From: Microbotryum violaceum
Taxonomy: Eukaryota
DNA: 64,000 nucleotides
Direction of reading: 5' to 3'
NCBI GenBank assembly: GCA_001244265.2
Contig: LN717261.1
Coordinates: forward strand, 868,001-932,000
Shown: positions 1 through 16,662 of the stretch, one piece after another
Layout: each line of letters begins with the position of its first letter
How positions within the stretch are numbered: the first letter of the stretch is position 1
Notes under the pieces: model-generated
What the model was told of the DNA's origin: nothing
The model's input: only the letters and a program-made list of their open reading frames with translations
Databases searched by the model: none
Made by a program: the position numbers and the translations under genes

Positions 1-644
1 GCCGTGTGTTGGACTCCGTTGAATGGTTCGTTCGTTCGCGTTGGTCAAGATCTACGGCATGGCTCGGGAAGGAAGGTCGCTCGTTTCTGGTCAATATCCT
101 CGCGTCAAGGCGAGGCTCGTTTCGTTGTACTGGATCGCTTTTCTCTCGGCCCCGACGGCTCAACAGCCAGCACTCGAGATTCAGCCAAGGGAGGACATCA
201 GGCGCTGTCGGGGTGACGAGTAGCTGGGGCTTGGCTGCGGCCTGTTAGTCCCTGGGGACCTCTACCTCCGGCTTCGACCCCCTCCCTGGGCCCCTCGGGT
301 GTGTTCCCCTCCTTTCTGCCTTAGTATTCCTGGTTCTCCGTGTTTCCAGTCGTGACTTTCTGTATATTCTCCCCCTTCTTTCTCTAGGCGCTCTTGCCTG
401 GTTTTCGAGTATCTTCGCTCCCGCTTTTGGGACGTGAAGCGGCGGCAGTATTCACCGCCCGTTGGAGTCCGCGTTAGGTGCTCGGCGGGTTTTGATCTGC
501 GCAGCGCTCTTTGCGCGCAGGGGTTTGACTTTCACCCAACTGCTTGCCGTCGTTGCTTTATAATCCCTTTTAGCTCTTTTGTAGCGGTCCCAGCCAACCC
601 GAAGGATTGCAATTTATGAGCCCCAGTCAAAAAAAAAAAAAAAA
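1..644 (+). mobile_element. 3' end (3'UTR and poly(A)) of a probable non-LTR retrotransposon, truncated by the window edge
   Basis: No credible ORF. A pyrimidine-rich tract (~305-430) and a GC-rich self-complementary segment precede A16 at 629-644, which abuts LINE A. The layout matches the 3'UTRs of LINE A and B but the sequence differs. Confidence 0.5.
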
Positions 645-683
645 CTTTACTTCACTTCACTTCACTTCACTTCACTTCACTTC
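645..683 (+). repeat. (TTCAC)6 microsatellite at the 5' end of LINE A
   Basis: Read directly: ctttac followed by ttcac x6. Confidence 0.95.
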
Positions 684-739
684 GAAATCGCCCTACCGCA
701 GTCTTCGATACTCGAGTTAACAAGTGATACACCGACAAG

Positions 740-13300: not shown

Positions 13301-14419
13301 GTACCATCGACGCACAATGCGCAAGTCAAGCCGAGGACGTTGACGCTCGCAAATCTTCTCGCCCTTCCGATCAAGTTGCACACCCTTCACTACCTACCGG
13401 GAGCACCAGCTGTGTCGCGATCACCCTACGACGTCGACTATGCTGCATTTGCCATTTACGCCAAGGTAGCGGACCTGTTTCGACGCGAGCTGTACCCGGG
13501 CGGGGGCTTTCATCTCTGGACGCCGCCGACGGATGTGGTCGTCAGCAACAGCGAATACGATCAACGGGGCCGCCCACAACGAGAGCACATTGTGGCATGG
13601 TACCGACATGCGATCAATCGATTAAGGTTTACACCAATAGCTCAACCGGTGGCGGCAGTACGAATCAACGGGCCTCCCCGAGTCCGCCCCAGATCCGAGG
13701 TCCGCCCCACAACGCCGCTCGAGTCGATCCTGCCCCATCCGATCGACCCGCCGCAGCGCCTTCCGAGACCGGCTCTCCCAGACCAATCAACACAATACAA
13801 CTTGCTCAGCATGGATCGGCCATACACCATCCGTCGCGTCCGCCGAGTCTTGAATGCAAAGGCCTTCACCGACACGATCAGTTTCAGGGACTCGCTGCAG
13901 CCCGACGATATCAAGGGATTCTGGAAGGGGTTCAACTCGAAGGCATTGACGGCGAGGGAACGCGATGTGTGGTTCAAGCTCGTCAGGAACTTCACCCCGA
14001 CTCGGAGTCTGCAGTTTCATCAAAAGCACGACGACTCGCCCGCGTGCCTCGTCTGTGGAGCGCCCAAGGACGATCGGGAGCACTACTTCTTCGACTGCGT
14101 TGACTCTGGGAACGTTTGGATCGCGGCAAGGAGCGTGCTCTGCGACGCACTGGGGCTCGACACGATCGAAAACACGCATTACACGGCTGTTCAACGCATG
14201 TTCGGACTTCCGAAGCTCAAGGCCAGTCTGCGCGATCAAGAAGGAGCGGGGAGGACGATCGAAATATTCACCGGGCTGGTCTTGGAGATGATCAGCAGCG
14301 GGAGGTGGGGGATGCAGAAGTGGGGGACGAGGATGGAGGGTGTTGTGAGGAGGAGGATCATCTTGGAGGAGAGGTTGAAGCTGAGGGCGGGAGGAGCTTG
14401 GGGGAGGAGAGGGCAGTAG
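10384..14419 (+). pseudogene. LINE B ORF2 (APE-RT-CCHC) with an in-frame TGA at 10444-10446 and two homopolymer frameshifts
   Basis: Same motifs as A. CGA (Arg in A) is TGA here. Frame breaks fall in a G run at 13077-13081 and a C run at 13210-13213. Confidence 0.9.
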
Positions 14420-16662
14420 AGGCTGGGTTCGACTTTCCCCCCACCACCACCACACACACGCACCAAATTCTCGTGACATCATTTTCTCCTACTGTACACT
14501 AAATAGATCGCTTTCATCTTTCATTTGTTACAGGTTCACCGTTGCGGATCATGGACCATCTCGCGATTTGGCGTCGACTCGGTGTGGCTCGCGCTCTTCG
14601 GCTTCGGGGTTCTGAGTCAAGGGAGGGATCAGCGGACACAGGCAGAAAGTCGGCTTTGAGGGGCCAGGGACTGCCGAGGGGGAGGTTTTGAGGGACCTTC
14701 ACCGCGTCTTGTTGTGACTGAGCAGAGACTTGGAGCGTCGAGGGTCGTGGTGGTTGCGCAGTCGTGGTCTTGTCTTCGTCTCGACCGAGTGGGAAGTGGC
14801 TGTGGGGTGGGCCTTCTGTCGTTAGTACATTTCTTTTCTTTCTTTTTTCTCTTCATCTCTCTTTCTCTCTCTCATTAGTCTCTTGGGGGGAGCAACCGCT
14901 TGGCTAGGGCATTTGAATCCGAATCTCGGATTGGTGGACTTGGCTCGTTTCTCGCACTTTTGCGGGCGGTTTGTGTTATCATCGTAGTCTTCCATCTAGT
15001 TTTTCCGTAGGCCAAAACAGGGGGAACAGGAACTGGGGGCAATATGATGAACGTTTTCTACAAAAAAAAAAAAAAAAAAGCCATGGCGGGCGGACTGGTG
15101 CACGGTCACATTGACTTCTACTACAACATCATCCCATGCAGGCCTTGATCGATGCCTTCGATTGATTATTGCCGCTCACCAACATGAACATGACGATCGC
15201 CGAGCTCCTCGCCTTCGATGTCGCTCCCGCCGACGTGTCTCTTCACATCGAGTTGTCCAAAGACGAGCTCACCCACTACTCGACCTTATCATCTACTCGA
15301 GGCCATTGAGAAGGCAAACAGCTTCTCACGAACAATCGTCTACCAAGCTCAACTATCGAAATTTTGGTCTAAGCTCATGCGTGTTTGGTTCTACACAGCC
15401 CACACACTTGAAACTTCCGCCTCAAGTTGTCGATGCTCGCGATACCAATTTCTCACTGAACTGGCCAACCTGATTGCTCATCAAGCTGCTCATAAGTGTA
15501 GCCACCTCGAGCTGTTCTACTCAAGGGAGGCCGATGGACTCGAGCGACTCAACTCGCGGAGAGGCAGGCGTAGGGGTTAGCAATACAGAGAAAGGACGCA
15601 GTACAACACATTCAAGCGTCTTGAAAGGGTTGGTACAGTCCATGGGACCATCTCGCTGCGAAGACACGGCGGGCACGACGAGGAGCTTGAACGAGATTCA
15701 GAAGAATGCCTATATTGAGGATGGCCGCATTCAAGTGAGTTGTTGCTGGATTTAGGAACGAAGGCAACTGGATCTAATGTTTTGCCGGTCCTAACGTTTA
15801 GGAAAAGCTCCCTGAGAGAGACAAGCAGTATGGAGCGCTAGCACAACGCTATCCTCATTTGGATCGCTTGACGGAGCTGTAACCGCTGCCACACCATTGG
15901 AGATTGGATCTCTGATCTGCTTTGGCCTCAAGTGTGGCATGCATTCACTCAGCTGCGAGCAAACTGTTTATGGAGAAGAAGCGCTGTCTATCGGAATTGG
16001 TACGCGCGTTGTTTTGAGTGGCAGTTGAGAAAGTTCTCGTTTGACACAAGTATTGTGTCCTACAGTGCGACACATCTACAGCAGAGTGACACCAAACCAC
16101 TGCAACCAAGACACGCTCGCCTCGTTGGTTCTACTCTCAAATGTCGTCGTACAGGAGCTTCGCCTCATCAAGAAAACATGCTATTCCACACACCTCATTG
16201 ATGGCACTATGCCGTTCCGCATGATTGATGGTCGACAGGTCATCGAGTCATTAGGCCCGTCAACGACTACATATCGTTCAACCACGGACCTTACCTCGTG
16301 TTACCCGGACGAGCGCCTAATCAGCACGAGCGCACATGCCGAGCAAAGATTTGCCGCCCTTCGGAGCGTGCCCTGCCTGCGAGATGCCGCCGGCAGAACC
16401 TCTACAAGCCGCACAAATGCCACCGCGGAAACAAGGAGCTCAACTTCAGCAAAAAGGAAGTCTGACAACGAAGCAGCGAGCCAGCCAGCAAAGCAAGGAA
16501 GGCTTGTTTGAAGCGTGGAGCCACGCGCAACACCAGCCGAAGCGACGCGCGCCGCGAGCCACTTTCGATAGGCCGCCGCGCGCCCGCAAACGCTCGGAAC
16601 GCGTTTTCGAGGACTTTTAAGCAATGTTTGTAGCATGTAGAACACATTTTGATAATATCTCC

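What the first reader, a model, noticed from the sequence alone, without database searches (positions are those of the whole stretch)
600..15079. Head-to-tail train of LINEs, each poly(A) tail landing on the microsatellite 5' end of the next
Seen: three co-oriented elements. A16 runs straight into (TTCAC)6 of copy A, and A's tail lies 9 nt from (TTTCAC)~7 of copy B. A and B are diverged sisters with different repeat units, and the first 3'UTR is a third sequence, so simple tandem duplication does not explain the array. Known: some Tx1-clade elements target microsatellites, and Drosophila HeT-A/TART form head-to-tail arrays. Inference: these fungal elements may carry their own landing site at the 5' end and build arrays by targeting each other.
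Basis: partly seen in the sequence, partly recalled or inferred. Interest (0 to 1): 0.8.

Follow-up and report, generated by a model that had tools for sequence, protein, structure and literature searches.

The report
Head-to-tail LINE train in Microbotryum
Three different LINE retrotransposons of an anther-smut fungus sit nose to tail, most likely because new copies land in the poly(A) tails of older ones rather than on a special landing pad.

Summary
An X-family LINE 3' end (1-644, A16) abuts CTTTAC(TTCAC)6 of full-length copy A. A's 18-nt A-rich tail lies 9 nt from (CTTTCA)8 of full-length copy B. B's A18 tail runs into non-LINE DNA, with Copia-type ORFs from 16708. All three are APE+RT+zinc-finger LINEs of Microbotryum.

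A and B differ by 19% with dN/dS 0.18-0.24. They are separate active lineages, not an in-place duplication. The 5' repeat sits at the same place in both, so it belongs to the element.

The "landing site" reading is not supported. B's own 3' flank has no repeat. Of 251 annotated Microbotryum LINE gene models, 41 start in or cross a LINE-tail-to-LINE junction. In 36 of these the downstream partner starts well inside its ORFs, so it lacks the 5' end of its coding region.

Best reading (0.55): L1/Zorro3-like insertion into A-tracts. LINE tails are the main long A-tracts in this 55% GC DNA, so LINEs chain in one orientation, as Zepp does in green algae. Template switching in a single event, or some role for the repeat, is not excluded.

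Contigs of other runs were not aligned across the low-complexity junctions, and no whole genome was available. Interest is moderate.

The parts
1..644 (+). 3' end of an X-family LINE. End of ORF2 at 23-223, 3' UTR at 224-628, poly(A) A16 at 629-644. The window starts inside this element.
   Evidence: tblastn to the C-termini of P0032 and P0036. ORF list. TRF. This stretch has the highest summed contig depth of the region in all 4 runs.
645..683 (+). 5'-terminal repeat of copy A: CTTTAC, (TTCAC)6, TTC.
   Evidence: It holds 7 initiator-like YYANWYY matches in 46 nt, against 0.31 per 50 nt in the window. The promoter role is inference only.
684..7640 (+). Body of copy A. 5' UTR at 684-739. ORF1 from 740, open to 2659 in the window; by frame arithmetic it runs to the stop at 2970-2972. 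ORF2 from ATG 2972 (TAATG stop/start overlap) to the stop at 6987-6989, holding APE, RT and zf-RVT. 3' UTR. Tail A5TA5TA6 at 7623-7640.
   Evidence: Pfam. Frames and homopolymer contexts. tblastn to P0006. Contigs of 4 runs carry one extra base at 2915, 3188 and 6252/6254.
7641..7649 (+). 9-nt spacer TGGGACTAA between A's tail and B's repeat. It may be filler or a 5' transduction of B.
   Evidence: Origin is inferred. Zorro3 insertions often carry 5' flanking sequence (PMC1965478).
7649..7696 (+). 5'-terminal repeat of copy B: (CTTTCA)x8 with one CTCTCA variant (TRF coordinates).
7697..15079 (+). Body of copy B. 5' UTR at 7697-7725 and 8066-8098, split by an insert. ORF1 at 8099-10384. ORF2 from ATG 10384 (TAATG overlap) to the stop at 14417-14419, with an in-frame TGA at 10444-10446 and frame changes near 13080 and 13209. 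3' UTR. A18 at 15062-15079.
7726..8065 (-). Fragment of the mitochondrial cytochrome b gene inserted in B's 5' UTR. It is a later event and not part of the LINE.
   Evidence: Translation under code 4. Pfam Cytochrom_B_C, E 1.9e-33. Contigs of the runs diverge from the window at 7726 (3 of the 4 runs in the rows shown) and at 8065 (all 4).
15080..20328 (+). Non-LINE DNA downstream of the train. Copia-type ORFs (gag-pre-integrase, rve, RVT_2) lie at 16708-20328. This is the site where the first element of the train inserted.
   Evidence: Pfam. No LTR pair found. High contig depth shows a repeat.

Best explanation
The train was built by ordinary target-primed reverse transcription (TPRT) aimed at A-tracts. 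These L1-like LINEs nick the T-rich strand of an A-tract and prime on their own poly(A). In this GC-rich genome the longest A-tracts are the tails of resident LINEs. A new copy therefore lands in or at the tail of an older one, in the same orientation. Its 5' end, full-length or truncated, then abuts the older tail, and any target duplication is hidden in the A's.

In the window, A and B each sit directly behind another LINE's tail. Only the last tail touches non-LINE DNA. The (TTCAC)n and (TTTCAC)n repeat is the inherited 5' terminus of the A/B family, not the target.

Shown: the anatomy, the family assignments, selection between A and B, and the recurrence of tail-to-LINE junctions in three named Microbotryum species. 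Inferred: A-tract preference of the endonuclease, the order of insertion, and any promoter role of the repeat.
For: 1. Domain set APE + RVT_1 + zf-RVT, two ORFs with a TAATG overlap, and poly(A) tails. The best solved relative is human LINE-1 ORF2p, E 1.9e-25.

2. A has an A-run on both sides, A16 upstream and its own tail downstream. B has A's tail 9 nt upstream and A18 downstream. This is the Zorro3 pattern. Zorro3 inserts into short poly-A tracts; of 19 mapped 5' ends, 12 were full-length, 6 carried extra 5' flank and 1 was truncated (PMC1965478, passages).

3. In human DNA, Alu self-insertions hit the A-rich linker in sense orientation. This is explained by the poly-T strand serving as primer, leaving little or no target duplication (PMC2836564, passages).

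4. The window has only three A-runs and one T-run of 12 nt or more. Two of them are LINE tails.

5. Of 251 Microbotryum LINE gene models fetched, 41 start in or cross a LINE 3' end followed by another LINE.
   - 24 begin with the very 3' ends seen in the window, read through the tail. MMN.FY plus K-run is the A/B end, and MSPS. plus K-run is the X end.
   - 5 have such a junction elsewhere: internal in P0132, P0182, P0205 and P0210, and behind another N-terminal peptide in P0174.
   - 9 continue past the X-type ORF2 C-terminus.
   - 3 more continue past the A/B-type C-terminus.
   All pairings occur: A/B to X, X to A, X to B, X to X, A/B to A.

6. The downstream partner begins at many different ORF positions in 36 of the 41. 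It begins at or within about 22 residues of the ORF1 start in 5 (P0079, P0085, P0092, P0126, P0207).

7. Fillers at some junctions are A-rich (P0106, P0184, P0191).

8. B's 3' flank has no repeat.
Against: - No empty site or target duplication was seen, so neither A-tract targeting nor the order of events is shown for these families.
- Both downstream elements in the window are full-length. Contig depth suggests only a minority of copies are: 5' to 3' depth is about 1:3 for A and lower for B. This is mildly unexpected under random 5' truncation.
- The gene-model census sees only junctions whose downstream frame is open. It is blind to full-length A/B partners, because a stop lies in the 5' UTR. 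It cannot tell insertion into a tail from a LINE nested in the body of an older LINE.
- The 251 models are not independent. They include haplotypes, and the same junction occurs in P0048/P0189/P0193, P0168/P0170, P0132/P0157 and P0165/P0184.
- A comparison of upstream and downstream partners in 6 fused models showed no clear age difference.
- The junctions in the window were not bridged by independent contigs.
Confidence: 0.55

Rival explanations
1. Single-event concatemer. During one TPRT event the reverse transcriptase reaches the 5' end of one LINE RNA, or stalls inside it. It then jumps to the poly(A) end of another LINE RNA and copies that too. Two or three elements are laid down head to tail at one nick.
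For: This explains tails abutting exact 5' ends with 0-9 extra nt, co-orientation, mixed families and truncated downstream partners. It also explains why only the last tail touches non-LINE DNA. The template-jumping biochemistry is recalled, not read here. Chimeric U6/L1 retrocopies are named in the abstract listing of PMC6789731. The same compound junction recurs in several gene models.
Against: It needs more than 14 kb of continuous cDNA across three RNAs. The recurrence of one junction is equally explained by later duplication. B carries a premature stop and a mitochondrial insert while A shows no clear lesion, a weak hint of unequal age. No direct evidence exists.
Confidence: 0.15
2. The (TT[T]CAC)n repeat at the 5' end of A/B elements is recognised as a landing site, so incoming LINEs place their tails on it and the array grows upstream.
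For: There are two tail-to-repeat junctions in a row. Resident elements must be full-length under this model, as A and B are. Gene models with an X-type end followed by the start of A-type or B-type ORF1 exist (P0207, P0079, P0085). Microsatellite-targeting APE-type LINEs are known: Waldo, Mino, Kibi, Koshi, Dong (PMC3812793, passages).
Against: B's own tail is not followed by any repeat. The offset is 0 nt at one junction and 9 nt at the other, and the repeat units differ. The strand that would prime at A's 5' edge ends in GTAAAG, not in T's, unless an A-run was already there. 36 of 41 junction-bearing gene models have partners that lack their 5' end. X-to-X junctions also occur (P0092, P0126), and the X 5' end is unknown.
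Confidence: 0.1
3. No mechanism. LINEs pile up by chance in a transposon-rich, selection-free region, and nesting produces the look of a train.
For: The window is transposon-rich, with Copia and gag fragments and long simple repeats. Nested insertion into LINE bodies could produce many of the tail-to-internal junctions in the gene models.
Against: Two successive tails fall within 0 and 9 nt of the exact 5' ends of 7-kb elements, in the same orientation. For random hits inside or beside such elements this is of the order of 10/7000 each. In addition, 5 gene models link an X-type end to the start of ORF1.
Confidence: 0.04
4. Assembly artefact. Separate LINE copies were joined falsely at low-complexity ends.
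For: The window shows single-base deficits at homopolymer runs relative to contigs of 4 runs, which suggests an unpolished long-read consensus. No independent contig was aligned across 619-689.
Against: Each junction is flanked by family-specific sequence. The same kind of junction is present in annotated assemblies of three named species.
Confidence: 0.03
5. Relic of telomere-like end healing, in the manner of HeT-A/TART. Elements were added one after another to a broken chromosome end.
For: All tails point the same way, towards unique DNA. The window begins inside the outermost element, so what lies beyond is unknown.
Against: No telomere repeat occurs in 64 kb. The elements encode an endonuclease. 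Junction-bearing gene models lie on contigs of 0.4 to 2.5 Mb as well as on small ones.
Confidence: 0.03

Closest known systems
Zorro3 of Candida albicans (L1-clade LINE that inserts into short poly-A tracts)
   Same: Fungal, APE-type, two ORFs and a poly(A) tail. A-runs on both sides of an insertion, no visible target duplication, many full-length insertions and frequent extra 5' flank (PMC1965478, passages).
   Different: Zorro3 itself begins with poly-A and has a 5-bp 5' UTR. The A/B family begins with a 5- or 6-nt repeat. Zorro3 trains are not described in the passages read. A-tract targeting is shown by experiment for Zorro3 and only inferred here.
Zepp and Zepp-like L1 elements of green algae
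   Same: L1-type LINEs that target existing copies and build co-oriented arrays made largely of 5'-truncated copies (PMC8226300 and PMC3446292, passages).
   Different: Zepp forms one cluster per chromosome, thought to be centromeric, from one family. Here several families mix, and the genomic distribution is unknown. The primary Zepp papers were not held.
L1-driven insertion into A-rich tracts of resident retroelements in humans (Alu into the Alu linker)
   Same: Sense-orientation hotspot at an A-tract, with the poly-T strand as primer and a short or absent target duplication (PMC2836564, passages).
   Different: Those are SINEs mobilised in trans in a mammal. Here autonomous 7-kb fungal LINEs chain.
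Microsatellite-targeting APE LINEs (Kibi, Koshi, Mino, Waldo, Dong)
   Same: A LINE end lying against a microsatellite (PMC3812793, passages).
   Different: That those elements have the same repeat on both flanks is recalled, not read in the passages. Here the repeat is on the 5' side only, differs between A and B, and is absent from B's 3' flank.
Telomeric and subtelomeric arrays: Drosophila HeT-A/TART/TAHRE; fungal MoTeR, FoTeR, Cnl1
   Same: Head-to-tail, co-oriented retrotransposon arrays (PMC5932611; bioRxiv 10.1101/2021.08.11.455996; PMC12857005).
   Different: Those sit at chromosome ends. The fungal ones belong to the CRE-like clade with a restriction-like endonuclease. The present elements have an APE domain, and no telomere repeat is nearby.
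Tandem LINE dimers by double insertion at one target site (Drosophila R1 and others)
   Same: Tail-to-head and tail-to-internal LINE junctions arise by repeated insertion (PMC5932611, passages).
   Different: That model leaves a copy of the target site between the elements. Here nothing but A's (junction 1) or 9 unrelated nt (junction 2) lies between, and the partners are of different families.

Membership tests
L1-superfamily LINE (APE-type, poly(A)-tailed) | ORF2 with an N-terminal APE endonuclease and an RT domain | tested here: met
   Pfam Exo_endo_phos and RVT_1 in A and B. B's APE score of 19.5 is below the cut-off of 24.5. The intact relative P0006 matches human L1 ORF2p over residues 116-769, E 1.9e-25.
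L1-superfamily LINE (APE-type, poly(A)-tailed) | C-terminal cysteine-histidine zinc motif | tested here: met
   zf-RVT at 27.5 bits in A, exactly at the cut-off, and 24.2 bits in B, below it. PF13966 is precomputed for P0004, P0006, P0032 and P0036.
L1-superfamily LINE (APE-type, poly(A)-tailed) | 3' poly(A) tail | tested here: met
   A16, A5TA5TA6 and A18.
L1-superfamily LINE (APE-type, poly(A)-tailed) | RT phylogeny places it in L1 rather than in Tx1 or Tad | not tested
   No clade-labelled reference sequences were available. A review cites Hood 2005 for L1-clade elements in Microbotryum violaceum (PMC3956500, passage).
Microsatellite-targeting LINEs (Tx1-type Kibi/Koshi; Mino, Waldo, Dong) | The same microsatellite flanks both ends of an insertion (this criterion is recalled, not read in the passages) | tested here: not met
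   For A: (TTCAC)n on the left, and a 9-nt spacer plus (CTTTCA)n on the right. For B: a repeat on the left and none on the right.
Microsatellite-targeting LINEs (Tx1-type Kibi/Koshi; Mino, Waldo, Dong) | Nearly all genomic copies lie in that microsatellite | not testable with these tools
   No whole genome is held.
Zorro3/L1-type A-tract targeting | A-run on both sides of the insertion, with no other target duplication | tested here: met
   Met for A (A16 and its tail). For B it is met apart from a 9-nt spacer.
Zorro3/L1-type A-tract targeting | Empty sites show a pre-existing A-tract | not testable with these tools
   No empty site was available. The aligner skipped the junction stretches.
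Zepp-like self-targeting LINE arrays | Co-oriented arrays of LINE copies joined tail to (often truncated) 5' end | tested here: met
   The window train, and 41 of 251 gene models with such junctions, 36 of them with a partner that starts inside its ORFs.
Zepp-like self-targeting LINE arrays | One cluster per chromosome, at the centromere | not testable with these tools
   No chromosome map was available.
HeT-A/TART-type telomeric arrays | Array lies at the chromosome end with tails towards the centromere | tested here: inconclusive
   No TTAGGG repeat in the window. The sequence upstream of position 1 is unknown.
MoTeR/FoTeR/Cnl1 (CRE-like clade) | Restriction-like endonuclease and insertion in telomere repeats | tested here: not met
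   The elements have an APE domain instead, and no telomere repeats are present. Clade features come from PMC12857005.

The most novel reading that the evidence does not exclude
The trains are not built one insertion at a time. The reverse transcriptase of these fungal LINEs habitually hops from the 5' end of one LINE RNA, or from inside it, onto the poly(A) of another. Multi-element concatemers are then written in a single event and can afterwards spread as units. In the same reading, the (TT[T]CAC)n head of the A/B family is a self-renewing row of initiator motifs that lets full-length copies keep a promoter. Such trains could seed the repeat blocks of Microbotryum centromeres or non-recombining mating-type regions.
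Probability: 0.15. Interest if true: 0.7.

Novelty: new member of a known kind. Interest (0 to 1): 0.45.

Why it matters
If LINEs of Microbotryum mostly land in each other's tails, three things follow. It explains why they cluster on small unplaced contigs. It gives a low-cost niche that spares genes. It also offers a ready route from dispersed elements to long co-oriented repeat blocks, in a genus used as a model for degenerating mating-type chromosomes.

There is a practical point too. About one in six LINE gene models sampled from the deposited annotations of three species is a chimera that starts in one element and ends in another.

Tried and rejected
- Whole genome: none is held.
- Laying contigs of 4 runs (X2, X4, X6, X8). 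The aligner skipped 619-689 and other low-complexity stretches, and most loose ends were not listed. The junctions were therefore neither confirmed nor contradicted. Contig depth was used only as a rough guide.
- Metagenome scan for A10, 0-12 nt, then (TTCAC)4: 1 locus, AT-rich, without LINE ORFs, so irrelevant.
- Scan of prokaryote genome contigs with a LINE ORF2 alignment: 18 pattern matches, none confirmed.
- Search of 1.84 billion representative proteins with the ORF that spans the X-A junction: 31 hits. The 7 I read were all translations of (TTCAC)n from unrelated sequences.
- Rfam and tRNA scans of 1-17000: nothing. No small-RNA gene target is present.
- LTR search around B's 3' flank: none.
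- Target duplication for B. The spacer TGGGACTAA shares only GGACT with the 3' flank, judged chance.
- Relative age of upstream versus downstream partners in 6 fused gene models. Both have relatives at 99% identity or more, so no direction could be read.
- ORF1 has no Pfam or solved-structure match.
- Primary Zepp papers are not held.
- Literature. A search for Microbotryum + non-LTR + LINE found 25 papers, of which 15 were listed and 2 were read in passages. No description of LINE trains was seen. This does not show that none is in print.
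Full report
WHAT IS THERE

The sequence shows the finding as described.
- Positions 1-644 end in A16 (629-644).
- CTTTAC(TTCAC)6TTC follows at once (645-683). Then come a 56-nt 5' UTR and copy A.
- A ends in A5-T-A5-T-A6 (7623-7640).
- Nine bases, TGGGACTAA, follow. Then (CTTTCA)x8 opens copy B (TRF row 7649-7696).
- B ends in A18 (15062-15079) and runs into GCCATGG..., without any repeat.

The two repeats occur nowhere else in the window, and shuffles give none. There is no telomere repeat. 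No RNA gene or tRNA lies in 1-17000.

WHAT THE ELEMENTS ARE

A and B each carry two ORFs.
- ORF2 has Exo_endo_phos, RVT_1 and zf-RVT domains.
- ORF1 has no Pfam or solved-structure match.
- The closest solved relative of the intact homologue P0006 is human LINE-1 ORF2p, E 1.9e-25, ahead of R2 proteins.
- ORF1 stops and ORF2 starts in an overlapping TAATG in both copies.

Homologues of ORF2 are overwhelmingly from Microbotryum: M. saponariae, M. silenes-dioicae and M. intermedium, up to 97% identity. All 23 ORF1 hits are from Microbotryum. The organism is therefore an anther-smut fungus.

The first 644 bases are also a LINE end. The ORF at 23-223 matches the C-terminus of a third ORF2 family, P0032/P0036. 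That family is about 41% identical to A/B and sits in clusters of 32 and 53 members.

No further LINE fragments lie in the window. Downstream of B come Copia-type ORFs.

NOT A DUPLICATION

A and B are 81% identical in DNA. Their dN/dS is 0.18 for the ORF1 N-part, 0.18 for APE-RT and 0.24 for the C-terminus. They diverged as functioning lineages and arrived separately.

STATE OF THE COPIES

Every frame change examined in A and B, except the one near 13080 in B, lies at a homopolymer run where the contigs of all four laid runs carry one more base (2915, 3188, 6252/6254, 13209). Table 4 shows no row for 13080, and 22 rows were withheld. These differences may be consensus errors of the assembly.

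B also has an in-frame TGA at 10444-10446. It carries a 340-bp fragment of the mitochondrial cytochrome b gene in its 5' UTR, at 7726-8065 on the minus strand (Pfam E 1.9e-33). Contigs of the runs diverge from the window at both edges of that fragment.

THE REPEAT BELONGS TO THE ELEMENT

With the mitochondrial insert set aside, the repeat is followed in both sisters by alignable 5' UTR blocks. The repeat is thus at a homologous position, although its unit differs (5 nt against 6 nt). In three of the four runs, collapsed contigs of the A family extend 17 to 55 letters beyond position 690 towards the repeat. Those letters were not shown.

Each unit recreates a YYANWYY initiator-like word: 7 matches in about 50 nt, against 0.31 per 50 nt in the window. 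A role as a row of start sites is an inference only.

IS THE REPEAT A LANDING SITE?

Three points in the window argue against it.
- B's own 3' flank has no repeat.
- The offset between tail and repeat is 0 nt at one junction and 9 nt at the other.
- The strand that would have primed at A's 5' edge does not end in T's, unless an A-run was already there.

The strongest evidence came from an unplanned source. The terminal bases of the A/B family read M-M-N-V-F-Y and then lysines through the tail. Those of the X family read M-S-P-S-Q and then lysines. Gene predictors have used these ATGs.

I scanned 251 Microbotryum LINE gene models. They were the hits of three searches plus up to 15 members of each of ten clusters.
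- 24 begin with one of these two signatures plus a lysine run, and then continue in frame into a LINE ORF.
- 5 more have such a junction elsewhere: internal in P0132, P0182, P0205 and P0210, and behind another N-terminal peptide in P0174.
- 9 run past the X-type ORF2 C-terminus into another LINE.
- 3 further ones run past the A/B-type C-terminus.
- In all, 41 of 251 carry a LINE-to-LINE junction.

The models come from three named species. All pairings occur: A/B to X, X to A, X to B, X to X and A/B to A.

In 36 of the 41 the downstream partner starts inside its ORFs, at residue about 111 to about 1819 of the fused reference models. In 5 it starts at or within about 22 residues of the ORF1 start (P0079, P0085, P0092, P0126, P0207). 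The last of these shows the same X-to-A pairing as the window.

Caveats on this census:
- The sample is not independent. It holds haplotypes, and four junctions occur in two or three models each.
- It can see only junctions with an open downstream frame.
- It is blind to full-length A/B partners, because the X-tail frame hits a stop in A's 5' UTR.
- It cannot separate insertion into a tail from a LINE nested in the body of an older LINE.

MOST LIKELY MECHANISM

One process covers both full-length and truncated junctions: TPRT aimed at A-tracts.

Zorro3, an L1-clade LINE of Candida, inserts into short poly-A tracts and ends up with A-runs on both sides and no other duplication. Of 19 mapped 5' ends, 12 were full-length, 6 carried extra 5' flank and 1 was truncated (PMC1965478, passages). 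In humans, Alu self-insertions concentrate at the A-rich linker in sense orientation. The poly-T strand primes, which leaves little or no duplication (PMC2836564, passages).

In this 55% GC window the runs of 12 or more are three A-runs and one T-run, and two of them are LINE tails. Tails would therefore be the natural targets.

A new copy then sits behind an older tail in the same orientation, and both flanking A-runs can be hit again. The 9-nt spacer before B fits a short 5' transduction or filler. The A-rich fillers at some gene-model junctions fit repeated hits in tails.

I put this at 0.55. The endonuclease preference, the order of arrival and any promoter role of the repeat are inferred, not shown.

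RIVALS

- Template switching from one LINE RNA to the poly(A) end of another in a single event gives the same picture (0.15).
- Chance is very unlikely for two exact 5'-end junctions in a row.
- An assembly artefact is unlikely, because the junction type recurs in other assemblies.
- End healing like HeT-A lacks any telomere signal.
- An age comparison of partners in six fused models gave no direction.

COMPARISON WITH WHAT IS KNOWN

The nearest systems are Zorro3, for A-tract targeting, and the Zepp elements of green algae. Zepp elements are L1-type LINEs that target existing copies and form arrays of mostly 5'-truncated units (PMC8226300, PMC3446292).

Fungal Cnl1, MoTeR and FoTeR arrays are subtelomeric and belong to a clade with a restriction-like endonuclease. 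Microsatellite-targeting LINEs are known, but the flank test fails here. Double-insertion dimers in Drosophila keep a target copy between the units, and none is seen here.

I found no account of LINE trains in Microbotryum in the one search made. That does not show that none exists.

VERDICT

The array is a product of LINE-on-LINE insertion that is common in the genus. The 5' repeat is an unusual but intrinsic head of one family. The proposed self-carried landing site is not needed and is not supported.

This is a new member of a known kind, of moderate interest. The decisive tests need whole assemblies, polymorphic sites and a marked-element assay.

Noticed in passing
window 7726-8065 (minus strand): A 340-bp piece of the mitochondrial cytochrome b gene (C-terminal part, read with code 4) is inserted in the 5' UTR of LINE copy B. 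Contigs of the runs diverge from the window at its left edge (3 of the 4 runs in the rows shown) and at its right edge (all 4).
   Followed up: yes
window 2970-2974 and 10382-10386: ORF1 stop and ORF2 start overlap as TAATG in both LINE copies. This suggests termination-reinitiation coupling. In A it appears only after allowing for a frame change at 2915.
   Followed up: partly
window 2915, 3188, 6252-6254, 13209, 14677: The frame changes in A and B that contigs of four other runs contradict lie at homopolymer runs, where those contigs carry one more base. The window's consensus may under-call homopolymers, so A may be intact.
   Followed up: partly
window 10444-10446: In-frame TGA early in B's ORF2, where A has an arginine codon. 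It is a real lesion if it is not a strain difference.
   Followed up: no
proteins P0048/P0189/P0193, P0168/P0170, P0132/P0157, P0165/P0184: The same LINE-to-LINE junction recurs in two or three separate gene models, some on different contigs. Compound units seem to have been copied after they formed.
   Followed up: partly
proteins P0106, P0184, P0191 (N-termini): Between the lysine run of the upstream tail and the downstream LINE lie short A-rich fillers, read as S/N-F-Q-K-K/N or T-Q-K-N-T-K4. They may be stubs of further aborted insertions in the tail.
   Followed up: no
window 27995-28508: A (TA)n tract of about 510 bp (267 units, 72% matches) lies in an otherwise 55% GC region.
   Followed up: no
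window 38407-38468: An A21 run is followed 22 nt later by (TCATGAC)x2.7. Odd A-rich and T-rich blocks lie upstream (38150-38335). It could be another retroelement tail, but no LINE homology was found there.
   Followed up: no
window 47973-48241: An 82-bp unit repeated 3.3 times (94% matches) lies inside an ORF that carries a retrotransposon gag domain (47816-49486).
   Followed up: no
gene ids: LINE genes of different families sit side by side in other assemblies. Examples are BQ2448_4324 (X-type) next to 4325 (A-type), BQ2448_6472 (A-type) next to 6473 (X-type), and a B-type ORF2 with an X-like ORF2 on one 11.5-kb contig of M. saponariae.
   Followed up: partly
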